Assembly (NCBI GenBank): GCA_964553885.1
Contig: CAZKLP010000004.1
Location: forward strand, 1-36,723
Source: an uncultured Candidatus Saccharibacteria bacterium
GTDB taxonomy: Bacteria > Patescibacteriota > Minisyncoccia > UBA10092
DNA: 36,723 nt
Direction of reading: 5' to 3'
Position 1 is the stretch's first letter. Each line of letters starts with the position of its first letter. Below are positions 17,750-25,190 of the stretch, in pieces. Under the pieces are notes generated by a model. That model was given only the letters and a program-made list of their open reading frames with translations. It ran no database searches and was not told the origin of the DNA. A program made the translations under genes and the position numbers.

Positions 17750-18331
17750 TTATATTTTTAATTTATTGATTAATTTTTCGTGTTTAAAATCCAAGAGGTC
17801 GCGGACAAAGCGGTCGTAAATACCGTAACGATAATGAAATTCTTTGGTTGTCATAAGAGCGCAATTAATTTCTTTTCCAACTTCCGCCTCCAAATTTTTC
17901 AAAAATTTATTAAACTTCGCCGACTTAATATTATCCCCCACTATCATAAGATCGGCATGCGAGTTGTCAAAATTCACGAATATCCCAGAAATTATTGCGA
18001 GCTTTATTTTCCCCAATAATGAAATCCGCTTAATTAGTTTTTCTTTTGACGCAGGATTGGCTTTCAAAACTAATTCTTTAAGTTCGTTATAAAAATAGAA
18101 ATCTGAATTTGTTTTAAAAACATACTTGCCTTTTACTGTTTTTTGGCCTACAAATTTAATTTCTTTCAAAACCTTGAGATGTTTATTCGCAATTACCGAA
18201 CCAATATTTAACAACTTTGATATGGTTTTCGGTTCAAAACTCGTTTCTGGATTGTACAAAAACAATTTTAAAATACGCGCCCTGACAGGCGAATCAAAAA
18301 GAACGTCTAAGGTTGGCGCGGATTTTTTCAT
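17750..18331 (-). CDS. Winged-helix (ArsR-like) protein with a possible nucleotidyltransferase-like C-terminal part
   Basis: SPVRARILKLFLYNPETSFEPKTISKLLNIGSVIANKHLKVLKEIKFV; C-terminal GIFVNFDNSHADLMIVGD. Confidence 0.5.
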   Translation of the reverse strand: MKKSAPTLDVLFDSPVRARILKLFLYNPETSFEPKTISKLLNIGSVIANKHLKVLKEIKFVGQKTVKGKYVFKTNSDFYFYNELKELVLKANPASKEKLIKRISLLGKIKLAIISGIFVNFDNSHADLMIVGDNIKSAKFNKFLKNLEAEVGKEINCALMTTKEFHYRYGIYDRFVRDLLDFKHEKLINKLKI

Positions 18332-18349: not shown

Positions 18350-18730
18350 CTATTTTATTTCAACTGCCGCGCCGACGGTTTCGAGCTTCACTTTTAGCTC
18401 ATCGGCTTCGGCCTTAGGAACTCCGCTTTTAACAACTTGCGGCGCGCTGTCAACCAATTGCTTAGCCTCCTGAAGCCCCTTGCTGGTTACTTCGCGGATA
18501 ACTTTAATAACGGCAATTTTTTGCTCTCCAGCTTTTGTAAGAACCACATCAAACGCGGATTTTTCCTCCTTGTCCGCCGAAGCTTCAACGGAAGCGGAGG
18601 CCGGAGCAGCCATCATCGGCGCCGACGCCGAAACTCCGAATTTTTCTTCAAGCGCCTTAACTAATTCGGAAAGTTCAAGAACCGTAAGCTTTTCAACTTC
18701 CTCTATAATTTTATCAAATTTGTTAGACAT
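18350..18730 (-). CDS. rplL: 50S ribosomal protein L7/L12
   Basis: [26 protein letters not shown] ... Ala-rich hinge ... [19 protein letters not shown]. Confidence 0.95.
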
Positions 18731-18772: not shown

Positions 18773-18808
18773 TTTTTCAGCCATAGGCGGATCAGCCTCT
18801 GGCTGAAA
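18773..18808 (+). repeat. GC-rich twin-hairpin mini-element, copy X (rplJ 3' end and rplJ-rplL spacer)
   Basis: tttttcagccataggcggatcagcctctggctgaaa. It matches the ddl copy at 32 of 36 positions by hand alignment. It contains the last five codons and the TGA stop of rplJ, read on the opposite strand. Confidence 0.85.
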
Positions 18809-19340
18809 ATTTACCTTTTATCTGAGTTAACACATTAATTAAATCGCGCGTATTGCCGAAAAGTACATTAACCAGTTCTATAAGAGGAGAAGCAATTATG
18901 CTAACAACGCGGCCGAGCAAAATTTCACGAGACGGCAGTTTTGCTATCTCTATAATTTCTGTTTTGTCATGCCAATTAAAACCTATAAAGCCGCCTAAAA
19001 TTTTTAACGCTTCATTTCCGCCCTTGGCGGCAATTTTTGAAAACTTGAAAATAGAACTGGCCGCCGGCACCGGATCGCCATAGCTGAAAACAACCCCCAC
19101 TTGCGTTTTTAATTTATCAAGATCAATACCTTTATAATCACCTAATTTTAAAACACGGCTTATCAATGTTTTTTTAGAAACTTTATACTCGGCGCCTATT
19201 TGTTTAAGCAAACGGCGCAATTCCATTGTTTTAGCAACGGAGAGTTTATTAAAATCAACCAAAATCGCCGCCTTGGCCCGGCTAAACTTGTCGGTTAAAT
19301 CTTTCAAAATATTATCTTTTTTTTCTCGCGTAATGGCCAT
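18792..19340 (-). CDS. rplJ: 50S ribosomal protein L10
   Basis: MAITREKKDNILKDLTDKFSRAKAAILVDFNKLSVAKTMELRRLL. Start trimmed to the ATG at 19340. Confidence 0.92.
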   Translation of the reverse strand: MAITREKKDNILKDLTDKFSRAKAAILVDFNKLSVAKTMELRRLLKQIGAEYKVSKKTLISRVLKLGDYKGIDLDKLKTQVGVVFSYGDPVPAASSIFKFSKIAAKGGNEALKILGGFIGFNWHDKTEIIEIAKLPSREILLGRVVSIIASPLIELVNVLFGNTRDLINVLTQIKGKFSARG

Positions 19341-19443
19341 AAAAAAATACGAGCAAACGCCCGCAGACACAAAACACATAAATGTCTTGATAATCCTCGG
19401 AGGGGCTTCTGCCTTTTGTCTGACCGCCCTCTGTCTGCGGAAT
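19341..19443 (-). promoter_or_regulatory. ~100-nt structured 5' leader of rplJ (possible L10 autoregulatory leader)
   Basis: GC-rich hairpin-forming segment between the predicted promoter and the rplJ ATG. Not matched to a covariance model. Confidence 0.3.
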
Positions 19444-19449
19444 ACTTAA

Positions 19450-19478
19450 AGCATATTCTATATTAAAAATCTTGTCAA
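19450..19478 (-). promoter_or_regulatory. Promoter of the rplJ-rplL operon
   Basis: Minus strand reads TTGACA (19473-19478), a 17-nt spacer, TATGCT (19450-19455). Confidence 0.6.
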
Positions 19479-19488
19479 CAAAAATAAA

Positions 19489-19511
19489 ATAAGGGCTTTT
19501 ATTGCCCTTAT
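19489..19511 (-). terminator. Hairpin plus T-rich tail after the HNH-like gene
   Basis: ataagggc-N7-gcccttat, followed on the minus strand by tttatttttg. Confidence 0.6.
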
Positions 19512-19984
19512 TACTTGCCCTCCGTAGCTTTGTGCGAAGGAAGGTTATTTAACTTGAATTTTTTAACAGGAATGCCACCTTTAACATCGCTATTCAAAAC
19601 TTTTAAAAGCGCCGTAAGCTTGTCTGAATGCTCTTGCTTGTATTTGTCAGATAAATCCCATTCTTTTAAAATTTCCGCCATACCGTTAAAAGAAATATTG
19701 CCGCCAAATAAAATATCAAACAATTCTTTGTAAGCGGCATAAATATTGATGTTAAGAATGCCGTCATTACAAATTTCTTTTAAGAATTCTGATTGCTCTT
19801 CGGGAGTCCTGTTCCCAAAAATCGCGTGAAGCGCGTTATGAGATACAATAGAGGTATCCGGTAAAATCAGCCAATTGCCTAACAGTTTCCGTTTTCCCGC
19901 CCGATACGGCATAGGAACCCGGCTTTTAGGATAAACATGATGGCGATTACTATGTTTTTGGCCCAACGGATTTTCTAGACTCAA
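19511..19984 (-). CDS. Small HNH-like (beta-beta-alpha-Me) nuclease-family protein
   Basis: RHHVYPKSR ... N37 ... SHNALHAIFGN. TTG start 8 nt after GGAG, 13 nt downstream of the 782-aa ORF. Confidence 0.6.
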   Translation of the reverse strand: MSLENPLGQKHSNRHHVYPKSRVPMPYRAGKRKLLGNWLILPDTSIVSHNALHAIFGNRTPEEQSEFLKEICNDGILNINIYAAYKELFDILFGGNISFNGMAEILKEWDLSDKYKQEHSDKLTALLKVLNSDVKGGIPVKKFKLNNLPSHKATEGK

Positions 19985-19997
19985 GTTGTTCTCCGGC

Positions 19998-22346
19998 CTA
20001 TGCTCTTAAAAGTCCGAGCGAATCTTTAAACTTGTCAACATCAATTGACTTTTTAAAAGGCTCTTTAAGCATCGGCTTATTAAAATAAGCGCTTTCATCC
20101 ATATAAATCCTCTTATTGTGTGAAAGAACTTTTAAGAATATGGGACCGAAATCAAGTTTTTTCATTTTACTGCCTTCAAAAGGCGTATAAATAACCTGCG
20201 TTGCCGCTTGAACCGCGACACATTGGCCCAAATCCGGCCGCCATTTGCGAACCGTGGTCGCCACGTGGAAATTGGCAATGCCAACAACTTGAGTGCCTAA
20301 GGCGTCTAACGCTTTTTGCGCGCGCAGCGAAGTGGTATCGGCTCTGGCCATGCCAGGATGGCGAGCGCCTAAAGTTAAACCCGAAGACAATGTGTATATC
20401 GGCTCAAAATCAGGCAATTTAACAACTTTCTTATTCACTAAGTCATAAAAATCAATAACCGGAAGACTGTGAGCAACAAAAAGAGCGCTGATTTCCCGAT
20501 ATAAAATTCTTGTTAATTTATCTCGGAAAGTTTCTAAAGGCGTGGTGCCAACACTCAATGCCCATGCATCATGATTGCCATCAATATAAATAAAGACAAC
20601 AAGACAACCGTTAACTATTAATTTTAATTCTTCAGCGGTTGGTTTAACTTCGGTAAATTTTGAAAGCGCGTCTTCAAATCGTTTTTTAAATGGCTCAAAA
20701 ATGACTGTGGAAACGAGTTCTGCGGCAAAAATTTGCTGATCGGTTTCATTTAAAGCGCCGATGATTTCACCGCGATGCATTAGATCATGTTTTAAACCGG
20801 CGACAAAATCGCCCAAACCAACTAAGATTTTTACTTTTTGATTTAAAATAATTTCGGGATATTTTGAAACGAAATGCTCATAATCGGTTACCGTATAGCC
20901 GGCATGAAGACAGCCGAAGAAAAGAAATGTGTCTTCAAGATAATCTTTTGGCAGGTTGTACCTCAGCCGCTCTTGCAGCCAATCAAGATGAAAATCATAT
21001 CTTTGGGATTTGGGATTGTAAAAAAGACCGGGCCAGGTTTTTCTGGGGAGCATTTTCGGCTCTTCCAAAAACTTTATTTCCCGTTCAATAGTTTGCCGAT
21101 CAATTTCAAGCTTGTCGGCTAAAACACCGGCAGTGATGGCCCCGCGATCTTTAATAACATCAACAATTTTCTTATGAAGTTCTGAAGCGCCGTCTTTAAT
21201 GCCCGTAATAAATTGCTTCTCCTTGTGAATCAGATCTTTAAAATTCCAAAATTTTACAAAACGATTGCCGTTAACGGATTCAACAATAGCTATTCCTTCC
21301 TGATTTTCGGCGACCGTTGTCGCTTCAAGACGACAAGAAGCGGGAAGAGTTATGTACGGACGATCTTTTTCGCCGCTGGTTTTATGAATAGCGGAAGCTG
21401 AAGTCCCCACTACCCAAAGATCAGGAAGCGGCTGATCCGACTGGCCAGCCTTATCCTCAATTTCACGCTCAGCGGCCGCGCTGTGATATTTGCTCGGCAA
21501 ACGGCTCTTCATCGGACTAATTACCCAATCAATTTCACCAACGCCTTTTACCTCAAGGCGGGTGCTGCCTTCATTTTCAAGCCGAATATCGTCAGGCCTC
21601 AAAACCTGAAGTCGACGAGCGATTTCTTCACCACAGGTACTCTCATAACGTTCACTGTATGGACCGTCGTAAACCCGGCTGGTTGAAATGTAAAACCTGA
21701 CAAATTCCGGTTTATTGGGATCGACCCAAATGCTGATCGGTTTCTTAATTTTAGGAATAATAGAAGCCAACTCTTTTGCCGACTCGGTAAGAAAATGATC
21801 CATTACTTTATCTCTTAAACCCGGCTTAACCGCCTTAAAACGACGCCGTAATTCTTTTTTAATATATTCTTTACTAATAATGCCGCCGGCAATGCCATTA
21901 AAATGGTTCCCCTCTTCGACAAACTTCAGGCAATCTTGCAAAATAATACCGCTGCGGTATCCAGGTCCTTTATAGTCCCAGCGCGAAGTATAGCCGCGCC
22001 TCGTTCCGGGCCGGCGCCAAGCCTCTTCGCCAACTTCCAAAATTTCCGGATCGGACCAAGAGCGCTCTTCTTTTTTTAATTGCGCTACAAACTTTGCCTC
22101 TTCTTTTTCTTTAATTTTTTCTCTGGATTTTTTAACATCTTCTGATCTTCCGATAAATATTGCCGGCAATCTTACGCCTGAACGTTTATAAATATTATGA
22201 ACCGCAACTTGACTCTTATCTAATATTTTGCCAATATCATCGGCGCTTAAACCTTTGGCAGCTAAGGTCTTTAAAATTTTTTTTCCTTCCGGCTTTAAAT
22301 AAAAACCGGCGGGCCAGGGTTTTGGAATTTTTAATTTCTTAACCAA
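19998..22346 (-). CDS. 782-aa multidomain protein: N-terminal HTH, internal winged-helix-like segment, C-terminal calcineurin-like metallophosphoesterase
   Basis: HTH ILKTLAAKGLSADDIGKILDKSQVAVHNIYKRSG. wHTH-like ELHKKIVDVIKDRGAITAGVLADKLEIDRQTIEREIKFLEE. Phosphoesterase motifs in order: C479-L-H481, G512-D513, G590-N-H-D593 (codons 20568-20579), H663, N692-F-H694. TTG start; the start is uncertain. Confidence 0.65.
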   Translation of the reverse strand: MVKKLKIPKPWPAGFYLKPEGKKILKTLAAKGLSADDIGKILDKSQVAVHNIYKRSGVRLPAIFIGRSEDVKKSREKIKEKEEAKFVAQLKKEERSWSDPEILEVGEEAWRRPGTRRGYTSRWDYKGPGYRSGIILQDCLKFVEEGNHFNGIAGGIISKEYIKKELRRRFKAVKPGLRDKVMDHFLTESAKELASIIPKIKKPISIWVDPNKPEFVRFYISTSRVYDGPYSERYESTCGEEIARRLQVLRPDDIRLENEGSTRLEVKGVGEIDWVISPMKSRLPSKYHSAAAEREIEDKAGQSDQPLPDLWVVGTSASAIHKTSGEKDRPYITLPASCRLEATTVAENQEGIAIVESVNGNRFVKFWNFKDLIHKEKQFITGIKDGASELHKKIVDVIKDRGAITAGVLADKLEIDRQTIEREIKFLEEPKMLPRKTWPGLFYNPKSQRYDFHLDWLQERLRYNLPKDYLEDTFLFFGCLHAGYTVTDYEHFVSKYPEIILNQKVKILVGLGDFVAGLKHDLMHRGEIIGALNETDQQIFAAELVSTVIFEPFKKRFEDALSKFTEVKPTAEELKLIVNGCLVVFIYIDGNHDAWALSVGTTPLETFRDKLTRILYREISALFVAHSLPVIDFYDLVNKKVVKLPDFEPIYTLSSGLTLGARHPGMARADTTSLRAQKALDALGTQVVGIANFHVATTVRKWRPDLGQCVAVQAATQVIYTPFEGSKMKKLDFGPIFLKVLSHNKRIYMDESAYFNKPMLKEPFKKSIDVDKFKDSLGLLRA

Positions 22347-22419
22347 TTCGGCAATCTTTGTCTTTTCAATCCATTTCCCCTTTTTATTAAATTTTAAACG
22401 AGCAAATGATTTATTTCAG

Positions 22420-22449
22420 TGTATAGTTTAATTATCTATCCGTCAACAA
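22420..22449 (-). promoter_or_regulatory. Possible promoter of the 782-aa gene
   Basis: Minus strand reads TTGTTG or TTGACG, an 18- or 15-nt spacer, then TATACA. Weak. Confidence 0.3.
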
Positions 22450-22456
22450 CAAAAAT

Positions 22457-22479
22457 AAAACTCCGGTTATCGGAGTTTT
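22457..22479 (-). terminator. Rho-independent terminator of guaB
   Basis: Minus strand reads aaaactccg-ataac-cggagtttt followed by a T-run, starting 4 nt after the guaB TAG. Confidence 0.75.
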
Positions 22480-22482
22480 TGA

Positions 22483-23988
22483 CTAAATTATTTCAATATC
22501 ATGCGGCTTACTTTCTTCCCAAGCCGCTTGGCTCATGCGCACAAACTTACGATGGAAAGGTTTCTGTAAATCTTCAATTGTTGCCGCTCCGGCGTAAGTC
22601 ATTCCGGAGCGAAGGCCGCTTACTAAAGCGCCTAAAACGCGAATAAGAGGACCGCGGTAAGACACATGTCCGGTAACTCCTTCCGGTTGAATCATATCTT
22701 TAAGGCCAGATTTAATAAAATCATCCCCTTTGATACCAAGATTGACATTTAAAGAAGACATTCCCCGCACAACTTTAACTAACTTGCCATTATCATCAAT
22801 AATATCACCGGGACTTTCATCGGTGCCGGAAAATAAAGTGCCGATCATTACGGTTGAAGCGCCGCAAGCGATGGCAATTGAAATATCGCGAGGATAACGA
22901 ACTCCGCCGTCGGCAATAATCGGAATTCCATGTTTTTTCGCCTCGCGGGCACACTCCAAAATCGCCGAGACCTGCGGCACGCCAGCTCCAGCGATAATTC
23001 TTGTAGAACAAGTGGCGCCAGGACCAATGCCGATTTTTATACCATCAATACTTACGAGTTTGACGTAATCGCACACCGCTTCAAATGTGACGACGTTCCC
23101 AACAATAAGTTCGCATTTTGGAAAATTGGTTTTAATGGCTCTTGCTGTTTCTATTGGCTTTCTGGCGTGAGCATGAGCAACATCAAGAACTAAAACATCG
23201 GCGCCGGCAAGTAAAAGTTGATCTACGCGACCAAGCAAGCCGGCAACGCCTTTTTCAATACCGATAGCGGCGCCAACGCGCAGCCTGCCGTTTTCATCTT
23301 TTGTCGCGTCAGGAAAAGACGCGTAGCGAAACAAATCTTTTTTAGTCATCAGCCCAAGAAGTTCTCCGCGTTCGTTAATAAAAGGAAGTTTCCCCAAAAG
23401 CGGTTGTTCTTTGAAAACATGCTCGGCAAGTTTTTTGGCTTTTTTCTCGGTAAGCGAAATATTGTCTGTCTCTATAACGATAAGCTGTTCGCGGAGTTTC
23501 ATGTATTTGCCGACCATTTCGGAATCTTCCGCGTTTGCGATTTCATATTTTGTGATAAGGCCAAGAAATTTTTTAGAAATATCTGCATCGATAATAAGGA
23601 CGCTGTCAATCTGATGTTCCGTCATCAATTCGCGGGCGCGACTAACTGAATCGCCGGGGAAAAGCGTGTAAGGCCCCCTAATAAGACCTTCTTCGGCCGT
23701 TTTAACTTTTTTAACTTCTTCAACTTGCCTTTCAATATTCATATTTCTATGAATAATACCCATACCGCCGTATCGCGCCATGGCAATTGCCATTTTGCTT
23801 TCAGTAACGGTGTCCATATTGGCGCTTATAATCGGAATCGCCAACTTAATTTTAGCGGTAAGACGAGTCGCGGTTGTCGGCCCGCCTTCTTTTTCCGCCC
23901 GAGTCTCTAAATCCGAATATTGCGGTCTTAAACAAATATTTGAAAAAGTGAGGCCTTCTTTTATGAATTCGTCACGCCAATCGGGCAT
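22483..23988 (-). CDS. guaB: IMP dehydrogenase with a CBS pair
   Basis: GLTFSNICLRPQYSDL, CBS insert, catalytic loop GIGPGATCSTRIIAGAGVPQ. Start trimmed to the ATG at 23988, preceded by AAGGGG. Confidence 0.93.
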   Translation of the reverse strand: MPDWRDEFIKEGLTFSNICLRPQYSDLETRAEKEGGPTTATRLTAKIKLAIPIISANMDTVTESKMAIAMARYGGMGIIHRNMNIERQVEEVKKVKTAEEGLIRGPYTLFPGDSVSRARELMTEHQIDSVLIIDADISKKFLGLITKYEIANAEDSEMVGKYMKLREQLIVIETDNISLTEKKAKKLAEHVFKEQPLLGKLPFINERGELLGLMTKKDLFRYASFPDATKDENGRLRVGAAIGIEKGVAGLLGRVDQLLLAGADVLVLDVAHAHARKPIETARAIKTNFPKCELIVGNVVTFEAVCDYVKLVSIDGIKIGIGPGATCSTRIIAGAGVPQVSAILECAREAKKHGIPIIADGGVRYPRDISIAIACGASTVMIGTLFSGTDESPGDIIDDNGKLVKVVRGMSSLNVNLGIKGDDFIKSGLKDMIQPEGVTGHVSYRGPLIRVLGALVSGLRSGMTYAGAATIEDLQKPFHRKFVRMSQAAWEESKPHDIEII

Positions 23989-24431
23989 ACTATCCCCTTT
24001 CTTCCTTTGGATAACACCACTTCGTATCCTCCTTCTCCTTCCCATAACGCAAAACGAATCCAGATATTATTTTCTTTCTCTCTTGCCCATATATTTGGTT
24101 TGCAAATGCTTTTTGAATTGTAGAAAAGCGAAACGCAAAAAATTCCTTGTTCTATGTAATGAAGTATGGTTTTGCCGGTATCAACGATATCTTCCGCAAT
24201 AATGCTGCGCTTTGTCGGCGCTAGAAGCAGAGGTAGATCCAAGCGATAATGCAAACATACGGCGAAAACTGTTCCTCCGGCCGGGATACCGTAAACACCG
24301 TCAAAATAATAACCTAAAATAGGCACTATATTTTCCGGCTTTAATTTTTCAACAATTATGGGCAGATCTTCAAAAAAATCTTCAATTTCATAAACAACTT
24401 CCGCCACTCCGTTGTGAAAGCTTTCGTACAT
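23961..24431 (-). CDS. Purine phosphoribosyltransferase (Gpt/Hpt-like)
   Basis: PRPP loop SIIAEDIVDTGKTI and a C-terminal WIRFALWE resembling the Gpt WI.FPWE. GAGGAG SD. Overlaps guaB by 28 nt. Confidence 0.7.
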   Translation of the reverse strand: MYESFHNGVAEVVYEIEDFFEDLPIIVEKLKPENIVPILGYYFDGVYGIPAGGTVFAVCLHYRLDLPLLLAPTKRSIIAEDIVDTGKTILHYIEQGIFCVSLFYNSKSICKPNIWAREKENNIWIRFALWEGEGGYEVVLSKGRKGIVCPIGVTNS

Positions 24432-24656: not shown

Positions 24657-25190
24657 TTACAATAAATGGAATTTATTTTTAAGATCTAAATCAATATCCG
24701 TGTTTTTAACTCGCAAAAATCTGACATACGGCGAGAGATTGAAAATTTCAATTATAAAATCAATTTCATTTTTGCATTCGTAGGGATGAATAAATACGCT
24801 TTTTTGCACAGGATAAAATCCGAGTTCTTTTAATTTTTCAACCAACGCCACCCGTCCCCGTCTTTCATCTTCTGGAATATCAAAAATAACCAAGCGCCAA
24901 ATGCCGTCCCATATTATCGGTCTTTTTATCCGAATTTTGTCTAAATCATACTTTAAAATTCTCTTCTTCCCGCTGTCTGTTAAAATAATATTTACCGTTC
25001 CATCGCTACTTTCTTTGTAATCCACCATCTTTGACCGATACAATTCCCTTATCGCCCGTTTTAAATTTCTTTCATTGATTTTTTTTCACTCCTTGACCAT
25101 GCTTTTAACAATTCTAAAATAATGATCCGGCCTTCTTGTTAAACTCAAAGAAGCTCCTCCTATTAAGAGGAGCATAACTTTTTTAGACAT
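24657..25190 (-). pseudogene. PaaX/Cas2-like paralog 2, interrupted by an in-frame TGA
   Basis: The track ORF 24657..25043 (WDGIWRLVIFDIPEDERRGRVALVEKLKELGFYPVQKSVFIHPYE) continues upstream in frame as MSKKVMLLLIGGASLSLTRRPDHYFRIVKSMVKE-TGA-KKINERNLKRAIRELYRSK. The TGA is the complement of 25086-25088. Confidence 0.7.

What the first reader, a model, noticed from the sequence alone, without database searches (positions are those of the whole stretch)
19511..22346. Insulated two-gene module: 782-aa HTH/wHTH-metallophosphoesterase fusion plus a small HNH-like protein, wedged between guaB and the L10 leader
Seen in sequence: the two ORFs are 13 nt apart on the same strand. The second has a TTG start after GGAG. 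The pair is bounded upstream by the guaB terminator (22457-22479) plus a weak promoter, and downstream by its own hairpin terminator (19489-19511). The rplJ promoter follows immediately. The large protein has an N-terminal HTH (res ~23-56) and a Lys/Glu-rich linker. Next comes a ~300-aa region I cannot assign; it could be a degenerate copy of the C-terminal fold, but that is speculation. A second winged-helix-like segment sits at res ~388-430. The C-terminal domain carries calcineurin-like phosphoesterase motifs with canonical order and spacing: C479-x-H481 (the Asp of DxH replaced by Cys), G512-D513, GNHD 590-593, H663, and N692-x-H694 (the first His of GHxH replaced). The small protein carries HH...N...H..H (RHHVYPKSR / SHNALHAIFGN), typical of HNH nucleases. 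Inference: a DNA-binding phosphoesterase/nuclease paired with an HNH protein, as a self-contained transcription unit in the slot where rplK-rplA normally precede rplJ, looks like an acquired defence-type or mobile-element-derived module. I cannot match it to any named defence system.
Basis: partly seen in the sequence, partly recalled or inferred. Interest (0 to 1): 0.75.

Follow-up and report, generated by a model that had tools for sequence, protein, structure and literature searches.

The report
Parcubacteria-wide tandem metallophosphoesterase gene, not defence
The two genes are real, but they are not an acquired defence cassette: the large one belongs to an uncharacterised, vertically inherited Parcubacteria protein family with two phosphoesterase-fold domains (one dead, one with an unusual invariant Cys/Asn metal site) joined by a DNA-binding winged helix, and the small one is a lineage-restricted companion of unknown fold.

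Summary
The sequence observations hold: both ORFs, the 13-nt gap, GGAG-TTG, both terminators, the promoters and a sub-threshold L10 leader. The wHTH passes Pfam's cut-off. The C-terminal domain is a calcineurin-like metallophosphoesterase (MPE) by Foldseek. C479, H481, G512-D513 and G590-N591-H592 are identical in 175/175 family members; H663, N692 and H694 are identical wherever aligned. The unassigned ~300 aa is also an MPE fold without the metal motifs, so the protein is a tandem MPE.

The "acquired defence/mobile module" reading is not supported. There are ~196 clusters (50% identity), and every named one is from the Parcubacteria group. There is one locus per genome, in a recurring chromosomal slot: guaB – BIG – (small ORF) – pcm/mltG – rplJ-rplL – mraZ. 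Divergence tracks the flanking markers, composition is native, and nothing turns up in viral, phage, plasmid or PADLOC searches.

The small ORF occurs only in one subclade, always directly after BIG. No profile method supports HNH, and its fold was not modelled.

Most likely function (inferred): a housekeeping nucleic-acid phosphodiesterase with a built-in pseudo-dimer. It is a new architectural variant within a known superfamily, of moderate interest.

The parts
19998..22346 (-). BIG: 782-aa tandem-MPE protein. The real start is possibly ATT at 22370.
   Evidence: ORF. 77 close clusters and ~196 clusters in the exhaustive search. AF2 model pLDDT 91.2, pTM 0.85. Start-codon issue.
22179..22292 (-). 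N-terminal three-helix HTH (res 19-56). This is a clade-specific extension.
   Evidence: Helices 19-30, 35-42 and 46-56 in the model. Weak HTH_38 and sigma-70 r4 hits. 86 of 175 family members have fewer than 25 residues before the first MPE domain.
22062..22154 (-). Lys/Glu-rich linker helix (res 65-95)
   Evidence: Sequence. Single long helix 69-92, with low pLDDT at 61-80.
21192..22058 (-). Degenerate (metal-motif-less) MPE-fold domain (res 97-385)
   Evidence: Domain model pLDDT 84, pTM 0.86. Foldseek PDB top-50 hits are all MPEs: PolD DP1 1.8e-5, SbcD, purple acid phosphatase, Pol epsilon B-subunit, Vps29, LpxH. Conserved S121, R131, P198, D227, N348 and E376, but no DxH/GD/GNH/GHxH motifs. 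hhalign against the C-terminal domain is negative.
20991..21191 (-). Winged helix-turn-helix (res 386-452)
   Evidence: Pfam HTH_11 E 7.9e-8, above the cut-off. Csa3/CasR-type wHTH hits. H-H-H-beta-beta in the model. PDB profile hits are wHTH domains only.
20001..20954 (-). Catalytic-type MPE domain (res 465-782) with motifs C479-x-H481, G512-D513, G590-N591-H592-D593, H663 and N692-x-H694
   Evidence: Foldseek PDB: purple acid phosphatase 7e-8, PolD DP1 1e-7, Mre11/SbcD 2e-6 to 1e-4. Motif residues identical in all 175 members that align there, except D593, which varies. They are the only invariant columns, together with G517, E724 and K729, down to 20% identity. Sub-threshold Pfam Metallophos hits in two homologs.
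19511..19984 (-). SMALL: 157-aa subclade-specific companion protein. It has a His-rich N-terminal part (HH14-15, H49, H53, FGNRTPEEQ). Fold unknown.
   Evidence: ORF. 71 clusters down to 47% identity, all unnamed. Always directly downstream of a BIG-type gene. No family hit.
19991..19994 (-). GGAG Shine-Dalgarno sequence 6 nt before the TTG of SMALL. The 13-nt intergenic gap suggests co-transcription.
   Evidence: Sequence.
22457..22479 (-). Intrinsic-terminator-like hairpin after guaB
22418..22446 (-). Promoter-like site upstream of BIG (TTGACG-17-TACACT)
19488..19512 (-). Intrinsic-terminator-like hairpin overlapping the SMALL stop codon
19333..19478 (-). rplJ promoter-like site (19478-19450) and L10 leader (19458-19333). 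This is the downstream boundary, not part of the unit.

Best explanation
**What it is.** The unit is a native chromosomal operon of a Parcubacteria-group (Patescibacteria) bacterium.

**Family.** Its large gene belongs to an uncharacterised, lineage-wide, vertically inherited protein family.

**Architecture.** The family's core is [degenerate MPE fold] - [winged HTH] - [catalytic-type MPE fold]. This clade adds an N-terminal HTH and a charged helix.

**Shown:**
- Both folds and the wHTH.
- Strict invariance of an unusual set of metal-centre residues: Cys-x-His, Gly-Asp, Gly-Asn-His, His, Asn-x-His.
- The taxonomic restriction and the recurring gene order.
- The lack of any mobility or defence signal.

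**Inferred:**
- The C-terminal domain is an active phosphodiesterase. Its alpha-site metal is held by Cys/His/Asp/His (as in Dbr1, which also has Cys for the motif-I Asp). Its beta-site metal is held by Asp/Asn/His/Asn.
- The dead N-terminal MPE plays the part of the second subunit of an Mre11/SbcD-type dimer or of a polymerase B-subunit-like scaffold.
- The wHTH (plus the extra HTH here) holds a nucleic-acid substrate, so the enzyme acts as a housekeeping nuclease or phosphodiesterase on DNA or RNA (repair, processing or nucleotide salvage).

**The small ORF.** The 157-aa ORF is a later, subclade-specific addition. It is transcribed with the large gene (13-nt gap, own SD, shared terminator) and most likely acts as its accessory subunit or modulator.
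For: **Family size and taxonomy**
- 77 clusters by word search. Those that carry an organism name are named Paceibacterota, Parcubacteria group, Patescibacteria group, or Nealson-, Niyogi-, Sungii-/Sung-bacteria, plus one labelled only 'bacterium'.
- 196 clusters at 50% identity in the exhaustive search of 1.84 billion proteins, with no bleed into general MPEs.
- 19 species-representative genomes, one locus each. The lineage is the Parcubacteria group.

**Structure**
- Full model pLDDT 91, pTM 0.85. The C-terminal domain is an MPE. The middle-domain model is also an MPE.

**Active site**
- C479, H481, G512-D513 and G590-N591-H592 are identical in 175/175; H663, N692 and H694 in all members that align there.
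- Together with G517, E724 and K729, these are the only invariant columns down to 20% identity.
- Cys replacing the motif-I Asp is otherwise the hallmark of Dbr1, where it is essential for activity (PMC4176325).

**wHTH**
- Pfam HTH_11, above the cut-off.

**Synteny and vertical descent**
- guaB lies upstream in the window, L001, L004, L006, L007, L015, L036-L043, L046 and L055, and further upstream in L003 and L056. guaB remnants lie upstream in L029/L031/L042 and L026.
- pcm/mltG/Lon, then rplJ-rplL-mraZ, lie downstream, even in a 31%-identical member, L034.
- BIG identity vs flank identity: Spearman rho 0.65-0.87.

**Native composition**
- z(GC3) -0.13 (BIG) and +0.21 (SMALL). z(codon fit) -0.09 (BIG) and +0.96 (SMALL).

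**No mobility or defence signal**
-.

**SMALL**
- Present at +6 to +182 nt in every locus with BIG >=70% identity that has downstream sequence, except L044.
- Also present after the divergent BIG genes of L030 and L026-28.
- Absent from all loci with BIG 28-58% identity other than L030.
Against: - No biochemical data exist for any member. Substrate class (nucleic acid vs small nucleotide vs phosphoprotein) is not determined by anything shown here.
- Pfam Metallophos does not reach its cut-off on this protein. The MPE assignment rests on predicted structure plus motifs.
- Foldseek TM-scores to any single MPE are modest (0.3-0.5 per target), so no specific subfamily (Mre11, DP1, PAP, LpxH) is favoured.
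- The conserved neighbours (guaB, pcm, mltG, lon, rplJL) have unrelated housekeeping roles and give no specific functional clue.
- An Azambacteria relative (L026) has a hyper-divergent copy that may have lost motif I. The activity may therefore be dispensable in some lineages.
Confidence: 0.6

Rival explanations
1. Ligand-processing transcription factor. The wHTH (and the N-terminal HTH) bind operator DNA. The MPE domain hydrolyses or senses a small nucleotide (e.g. a cyclic or linear di-nucleotide, Ap4A or 2',3'-cNMP), coupling gene expression to nucleotide status. This would be analogous to enzyme-repressor fusions such as BirA, NadR or NrtR.
For: - The HTH_11-type wHTH is typical of transcription regulators, and its closest profile hits are Csa3/CasR and DeoR/GlpR-type regulators.
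- guaB and a phosphoribosyltransferase (purine salvage) recur upstream.
- Many MPEs are small-nucleotide phosphodiesterases (established knowledge). LpxH and Lmo2642-type enzymes appear among the structural hits.
Against: - guaB and BIG are separated by a terminator and a promoter here. guaB is absent or decayed next to BIG in many genomes while BIG is kept.
- The wHTH is embedded between two large domains rather than terminal.
- There is no evidence for an operator or autoregulation.
- A 650-aa two-MPE body is large for a sensor.
Confidence: 0.2
2. One reading: an acquired anti-phage defence or mobile-element-derived two-gene module (DNA-binding phosphoesterase/nuclease plus HNH nuclease) inserted between guaB and rplJ.
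For: - The transcription unit is self-contained, with its own promoter and terminator.
- It combines a nuclease-type fold with a His-rich small partner.
- A 14-nt exact direct repeat flanks the unit.
- Neither protein has a named family.
Against: - The gene sits in a recurring slot across the Parcubacteria group, down to 31% identity.
- There is one locus per genome, and divergence tracks the flanks.
- Composition is native.
- No PADLOC hit apart from the wHTH.
- No relatives on 2.9 million viral contigs, in phage genomes or on plasmids.
- The flanking 14-mer is absent from all 72 related loci, including those with the same gene order.
- The neighbours are housekeeping genes, not defence genes.
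- HNH is unsupported.
Confidence: 0.03
3. Phosphoprotein phosphatase or other non-nucleic-acid phosphoesterase, working in protein maintenance together with the neighbouring pcm (isoaspartyl methyltransferase) and lon genes.
For: - pcm lies directly downstream (65-299 nt) in many lineages. lon lies directly downstream in four of the 22 loci clustered (L001, L017, L018, L025).
- The MPE superfamily includes the PPP protein phosphatases, and the motif II form GD-x-x-[AE]-G resembles GDxVDRG (own knowledge).
Against: - Two HTH-type domains argue for nucleic-acid binding.
- The nearest structural hits are nucleases, DP1 and acid phosphatases rather than PPP phosphatases.
- Adjacency to pcm/lon is not universal and sits inside a long syntenic block of unrelated genes.
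Confidence: 0.07
4. Non-catalytic scaffold. Both MPE folds would be structural, as in eukaryotic polymerase B-subunits or Vps29.
For: - The N-terminal MPE is clearly degenerate, and the Pol epsilon B-subunit and Vps29 are among its hits.
- The canonical Asp and one His of the C-terminal site are replaced.
Against: All remaining metal ligands, the catalytic His592, and the replacement residues Cys479 and Asn692 are identical in every member that aligns there, down to 20% identity. That is the signature of a working active site. Cys at this position is catalytic in Dbr1.
Confidence: 0.03

Closest known systems
Calcineurin-like metallophosphoesterase superfamily (Pfam PF00149 clan): Mre11/SbcD, PolD DP1, purple acid phosphatase, LpxH
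   Same: - Both large domains adopt this fold.
- The C-terminal one has the five motifs in canonical order, with GD, GNH(D) and the motif-IV His intact.
   Different: - No member is detectable by sequence: no PDB sequence hit, and no Pfam hit above the cut-off.
- Motif I is C-x-H, not D-x-H. Motif V is N-x-H, not H-x-H.
- Two MPE folds lie in one chain with a wHTH between them.
- No Rad50/SbcC, DP2 or OB-fold partner is present.
Dbr1 RNA lariat debranching enzyme
   Same: Dbr1 is the MPE family in which an invariant, catalytically essential Cys replaces the motif-I Asp. [quoted passage not shown] BIG has the same substitution, and it is invariant.
   Different: - No sequence similarity, and Dbr1 is not among the top-50 structural hits.
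- Dbr1 keeps His-x-His in motif V (His230/His232), whereas BIG has Asn-x-His.
- The Dbr1 lariat-recognition loop and C-terminal domain were not identified here.
- Dbr1 is eukaryotic and has a single MPE domain.
Catalytically dead MPE domains (Pol alpha/delta/epsilon B-subunits, Vps29, GAP50)
   Same: The N-terminal MPE domain of BIG keeps the fold but none of the metal motifs. These proteins are among its structural hits.
   Different: In BIG the dead domain is fused in cis to a live-looking one. It keeps its own set of conserved residues (S121, R131, D227, N348, E376), whose role is unknown.
HNH (beta-beta-alpha-Me) nucleases, as candidate for the small ORF
   Same: The motif HHVYPKSR ... H49xxxH53 resembles the HH-x-x-P-x-S ... 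H pattern of HNH proteins such as McrA. This resemblance comes from recall plus the sequence.
   Different: - No HNH profile hit for any of 17 members in Pfam or PHROGs, and none for the window protein in NCBIfam or PADLOC.
- No PDB sequence hit with the family profile.
- hhalign against a true HNH protein gives probability 0.1%.
- There is no invariant Asn between the His residues and no Cys4 zinc site.

Membership tests
Calcineurin-like metallophosphoesterase superfamily (C-terminal domain, res 465-782) | Two-layer beta-sandwich alpha/beta MPE fold | tested here: met
   Foldseek PDB: all top-50 hits are MPEs, probability >=0.98 (E 7e-8 to 1.5e-4), on a model with pLDDT 91.
Calcineurin-like metallophosphoesterase superfamily (C-terminal domain, res 465-782) | Five motifs DxH / GD / GNH(D/E) / H / GHxH, in order, providing seven metal ligands | tested here: inconclusive
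   Order and spacing are canonical, and five of the seven ligands are canonical. Asp is replaced by Cys479 and His by Asn692. Both are identical in all members that align there (175/175 and 172/172). The Cys variant has a precedent in Dbr1.
Calcineurin-like metallophosphoesterase superfamily (C-terminal domain, res 465-782) | Match to Pfam PF00149 above the gathering score | tested here: not met
   No hit for the window protein at E<=1. There are only sub-threshold hits in homologs: P0188 at E 0.0016 and the L030 copy at E 0.08.
Calcineurin-like metallophosphoesterase superfamily (C-terminal domain, res 465-782) | Metal binding and phosphoester hydrolysis | not testable with these tools
   Requires purified protein.
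MPE fold, degenerate class (middle domain, res 97-385) | MPE fold without metal-ligand motifs | tested here: met
   Domain model pLDDT 84. Foldseek top-50 hits are all MPEs, including the inactive Pol epsilon B-subunit and Vps29. The motif positions are not D/H/N.
HTH_11 winged helix (res 386-452) | Pfam PF08279 above the gathering score; H-H-H-wing topology | tested here: met
   32.5 bits vs cut-off 25. Secondary structure in the model.
Dbr1 family | Sequence or structural similarity to Dbr1 beyond the generic MPE fold; His-x-His in motif V | tested here: not met
   No PDB sequence hit at E<=10 with the family profile. Dbr1 is not in the top-50 Foldseek hits. Motif V is N-x-H.
Dbr1 family | Invariant Cys in place of the motif-I Asp | tested here: met
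   C479 in 175/175. The Dbr1 feature is as described in PMC4176325.
Mre11/SbcD nucleases | Partner Rad50/SbcC ATPase gene adjacent; canonical DxH and GHxH | tested here: not met
   No SMC/Rad50-like gene in the annotated neighbourhoods. None appeared among the 25 largest conserved neighbour clusters across the first 22 loci. Motifs I and V are variant.
PolD DP1 / polymerase B-subunits | OB-fold N-terminal to the MPE; DP2 or catalytic-subunit partner | tested here: not met
   The domain preceding the C-terminal MPE is a wHTH, and before that comes a second MPE. No polymerase gene lies nearby.
HNH nucleases (small ORF) | Match to an HNH profile | tested here: not met
   no hit, even at permissive thresholds or with the family profile.
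HNH nucleases (small ORF) | beta-beta-alpha-metal fold | not tested
HNH nucleases (small ORF) | Conserved H ... N ... H catalytic pattern | tested here: inconclusive
   HH14-15 is conserved wherever the N-terminus is included in the gene call, apart from one aberrant sequence (P0110). H49 and H53 are invariant. No Asn between them is invariant (N37, N42 and N50 all vary).
Known anti-phage defence systems (PADLOC-DB 2.0) | Match of either protein to a defence-system model; location in a variable or mobile context | tested here: not met
   Only the wHTH segment matches CasR/WYL/CARF-associated HTH models, and the small ORF matches none. The chromosomal slot recurs across lineages. No viral, phage or plasmid relatives.

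The most novel reading that the evidence does not exclude
BIG may be a Parcubacteria-wide enzyme whose Cys/His-Asp-Asn/His/Asn metal centre is a bacterial counterpart of the Dbr1-type site. It would act on unusual phosphodiester bonds, such as the 2'-5' branches of group II intron lariats or other branched or cyclic nucleic acids.

This would fit a lineage known (from my own knowledge of the CPR literature) for intron-rich rRNA genes. The dead MPE plus wHTH would provide substrate recognition. If so, it would be the first bacterial debranching-type MPE, and a lineage-defining housekeeping function.
Probability: 0.06. Interest if true: 0.8.

Novelty: new variant of a known kind. Interest (0 to 1): 0.4.

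Why it matters
Patescibacteria (CPR) genomes are small, and a large share of their conserved genes have no assigned function.

This work turns one widely conserved 'hypothetical protein' into a defined family:
- a tandem metallophosphoesterase with a winged helix;
- a dead first domain;
- an invariant, unusual Cys/Asn-containing metal site.

The Cys substitution is described in the literature as a Dbr1 hallmark, so the family is a natural test case for how MPE metal sites are retuned.

It also gives enzymologists a clear target: about 200 sequence clusters, a high-confidence model and obvious point mutants.

Equally useful is the negative result. A self-contained nuclease-like two-gene unit next to ribosomal genes looked like a defence island, but it is ordinary conserved chromosome.

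Tried and rejected
- **Defence / mobile element.** PADLOC matched only the wHTH. PHROGs gave nothing meaningful. IMG/VR scans for both proteins found no relatives. tblastn of BIG against phage and plasmid collections found no match, and the small-protein segment against phages gave only E>0.5 noise.
- **Internal duplication by sequence.** hhalign of the middle domain vs the C-terminal domain gave probability 0.2%. Only structure shows the shared fold.
- **HNH for the small ORF.** Pfam, NCBIfam, PADLOC and PHROGs were run on the single sequence. Pfam and PHROGs were also run on all 17 aligned members. The PDB was searched by sequence and by profile. hhalign was run against a Pfam-positive HNH protein from L028. 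All were negative.
- **Sequence link to solved MPEs or Dbr1.** The family profile against the PDB returned only wHTH domains.
- **Extra domains in long family members.** None were found.
- **Broader metagenome survey of distant members.** Alignments A4 and A5 were too divergent for the pattern scan and gave errors. A1 was used instead.
- **Flanking 14-nt direct repeat as an insertion scar.** Rejected, because it is absent from all 72 related loci.
- **Literature.** Searches for Patescibacteria/Parcubacteria plus metallophosphoesterase/phosphoesterase, and for tandem MPE plus winged helix, found nothing relevant.
- **Viral structure library.** Only generic MPE matches.

Full report
**1. Observation**

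The window carries two same-strand ORFs: 19998-22346 (782 aa, 'BIG') and 19511-19984 (157 aa, 'SMALL'). They lie between an IMP dehydrogenase gene (22483-24045; Pfam IMPDH, E 1.7e-120) and rplJ-rplL (18792-19379 and 18350-18730).

- The gap between the ORFs is 13 nt, with GGAG before the TTG of SMALL.
- A 9-bp hairpin plus T-run lies directly after guaB (22479-22457). Another overlaps the SMALL stop codon (19512-19488).
- Promoter-like hexamers lie at 22446-22418 and 19478-19450.
- A full-length but sub-threshold Rfam L10_leader match (36.4 bits, E 1.2e-4) lies at 19458-19333.

One caveat concerns the start codon. Close homologs begin MEK(S/T)KIAEL. The window encodes IEKTKIAEL in frame from an ATT at 22370, behind AAAGGGG. 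The true start may therefore be 8 codons upstream of the TTG.

**2. What the large protein is**

By sequence only the central winged helix is recognisable: Pfam HTH_11 at res 393-429, 32.5 bits against a cut-off of 25. PADLOC and NCBIfam hit the same segment through Csa3/CasR-type HTH models.

An AlphaFold2 model built on 34 homologs is confident (pLDDT 91.2, pTM 0.85). Foldseek against the PDB returns only calcineurin-like metallophosphoesterases (MPEs): purple acid phosphatase 7e-8, PolD DP1 1e-7, Mre11/SbcD 2e-6 to 1e-4, Vps29 and GAP50. This confirms the C-terminal assignment.

I modelled the unassigned middle region (res 95-385) separately (pLDDT 84, pTM 0.86). Its top-50 PDB hits are again all MPEs. 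They include the catalytically dead Pol epsilon B-subunit and Vps29. hhalign finds no residual sequence similarity between the two halves.

The architecture is:
- HTH (res 19-56)
- K/E-rich helix (res 69-92)
- dead MPE (res 97-385)
- wHTH (res 386-452)
- MPE (res 465-782)

**3. Active site**

In 175 full-length family members, C479, H481, G512-D513 and G590-N591-H592 are identical in all. H663, N692 and H694 are identical in all that align there. In a 45-sequence alignment reaching 20% identity, these residues plus G517, E724 and K729 are the only invariant columns.

The two departures from the canonical motifs (Asp to Cys in motif I, His to Asn in motif V) are fixed features of the family. 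They are not signs of decay.

According to PMC4176325, an invariant, catalytically essential Cys replaces this same Asp in Dbr1. [quoted passage not shown] BIG is not a Dbr1 relative:
- the family profile finds no Dbr1 in the PDB by sequence;
- Dbr1 is not among the top structural hits;
- motif V differs.

The parallel nevertheless argues that the site is functional and may favour Fe or Zn.

The dead domain keeps its own conserved residues: S121, R131, P198, D227, N348 and E376. Their role is unknown.

**4. Distribution and context**

- The word-indexed search found 77 clusters. Those that carry an organism name are Parcubacteria-group or Patescibacteria lineages, plus one labelled only 'bacterium' (lineages).
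- The exhaustive HMM search of 1.84 billion representatives found only 196 clusters at E<=1e-3. Most are 650-740 aa and start at the dead MPE.
- 86 of 175 members have fewer than 25 residues before the dead MPE. The N-terminal HTH extension is therefore clade-specific.
- Nineteen species-representative genomes carry the gene, one locus each.

Across 72 fetched loci the gene sits in a recurring slot.
- guaB lies directly or closely upstream in many lineages (Sungiibacteriota L001, Nealsonbacteria L004, the window's clade, L015, L055). In L003 and L056 it lies 1.6-4 kb upstream. In several others an ~84-aa remnant of guaB remains.
- Downstream come pcm-type methyltransferase, mltG/yceG or lon, then rplJ-rplL, a 193-aa HTH protein, and mraZ-rsmH-PBP.
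- Even a 31%-identical member (L034) lies upstream of rplJ-rplL-mraZ. Two other distant members (L033, L035) sit elsewhere.

BIG identity to the window correlates with that of flanking L10, L7/L12 and IMPDH (Spearman 0.68, 0.65 and 0.87). GC3 and codon fit of both genes are within 1 SD of the window's genes.

Neither protein has relatives on IMG/VR contigs. BIG has none in phage genomes or plasmids. A 14-nt exact repeat flanking the unit is absent from all related loci, including those with the same gene order.

**5. The small ORF**

It is a real, conserved gene: 71 clusters down to 47% identity, with invariant H49, H53, the FGNR-PxE stretch (I55-R59, P61, E63), W38 and others.

- It is found directly after BIG (+6 to +182 nt) in every locus whose BIG is >=70% identical and that has downstream sequence, with one loss (L044).
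- It is also found after the fast-evolving BIG genes of L030 and Azambacteria L026-28.
- It is found in no locus with BIG at 28-58% identity other than L030.

It is thus a subclade innovation, stably linked to BIG, and probably a functional partner.

The HNH proposal received no support from any profile method, and no Asn between the His residues is conserved. The HHVYPKSR...HxxxH pattern is still suggestive. The point stays open.

**6. Mechanism**

*Shown:* two MPE folds, one with a strictly conserved variant metal centre; an embedded wHTH; vertical, lineage-wide inheritance.

*Inferred:*
- The C-terminal domain is an active phosphodiesterase.
- The dead domain substitutes for the second protomer or scaffold seen in dimeric MPE nucleases and polymerase B-subunits.
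- The wHTH/HTH domains present a nucleic-acid substrate.

I therefore favour a housekeeping nuclease or phosphodiesterase acting on DNA or RNA (overall confidence 0.6; the substrate class itself about 0.5). The main rival is an enzyme-coupled transcription factor that senses a small nucleotide (0.2). Protein phosphatase (0.07), inert scaffold (0.03) and defence module (0.03) are less likely.

**7. Novelty and interest**

No paper in the searchable library mentions the family, and the only names any source gives it are 'hypothetical protein', 'Uncharacte…' (truncated in the table, presumably 'Uncharacterized protein') or 'HTH domain-containing protein'. It is a new architectural and active-site variant within a well-known superfamily.

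It is interesting for CPR biology and MPE enzymology, but it is not the defence system proposed. Interest 0.4.

The most novel reading not excluded is a bacterial debranching-type (2'-5') phosphodiesterase. I give that about 6%.

Noticed in passing
window 22447-22460 and 19476-19489: There is an exact 14-nt direct repeat (TTTTATTTTTGTTG on the minus strand) at both ends of the two-gene unit. In each case it is the terminator T-tail running into a TTGAC -35-like box. These are the only two exact copies in the window, and there are none in 72 related loci.
   Followed up: yes
window 22346-22376: Homologs start MEK(S/T)KIAEL. Here the equivalent codon is ATT (22370), and the nearby ATG (22374) is out of frame. 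This suggests a non-canonical start, a small indel or an assembly error at the 5' end of BIG.
   Followed up: partly
L029 2911-3165, L031 3001-3255, L042, L026 3384-3641: In several close relatives the guaB gene upstream of BIG is reduced to a C-terminal remnant of about 84 aa, while BIG stays intact. IMPDH appears to be in the process of being lost in these lineages.
   Followed up: partly
L030 3764-5875; L026 3749-5884: Two lineages have flanking genes 59-83% identical to the window but strongly divergent BIG genes. L030 is 38% identical with all motifs intact. The Azambacteria copy is detectable only by hhalign (E 6e-5), and motif I is possibly lost. This points to accelerated evolution or replacement in situ.
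   Followed up: partly
L044 1724-1904: One close relative (BIG 79% identical) has rplJ only 180 nt after BIG and no small ORF. This is a secondary loss of the companion gene.
   Followed up: no
window 24657-25043 (-): A 128-aa protein has a PaaX central / Cas2-like domain (PF20803, E 2.9e-21; CRISPR_Cas2, E 3e-5). It is conserved near guaB in L006, L007 and L015. No CRISPR array was noticed.
   Followed up: no
window 19333-19458 (-): An Rfam L10_leader match is full-length but below the gathering score (36.4 vs 44 bits). It is probably a divergent Patescibacteria version of the leader.
   Followed up: partly
L028 291-773 vs L026/L027: A genuine Pfam-HNH 160-aa ORF is present in one Azambacteria contig and absent from otherwise identical sister contigs. 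This is strain-level insertion of a homing-type HNH gene, unrelated to the small ORF under study.
   Followed up: no
window 17750-18331 (-) and orthologs in L006, L007, L026, L029-L031, L037, L038, L040, L042-L044, L070: A 193-aa HTH protein (weak DUF4423 and HTH_20 hits) is conserved directly after rplL and before mraZ in this clade. It is another uncharacterised, syntenic Parcubacteria gene.
   Followed up: no
window 23961-24045: The longest guaB ORF overlaps the 3' end of the upstream phosphoribosyltransferase-like ORF (23961-24431) by 85 nt. The real guaB start is probably an internal Met.
   Followed up: no
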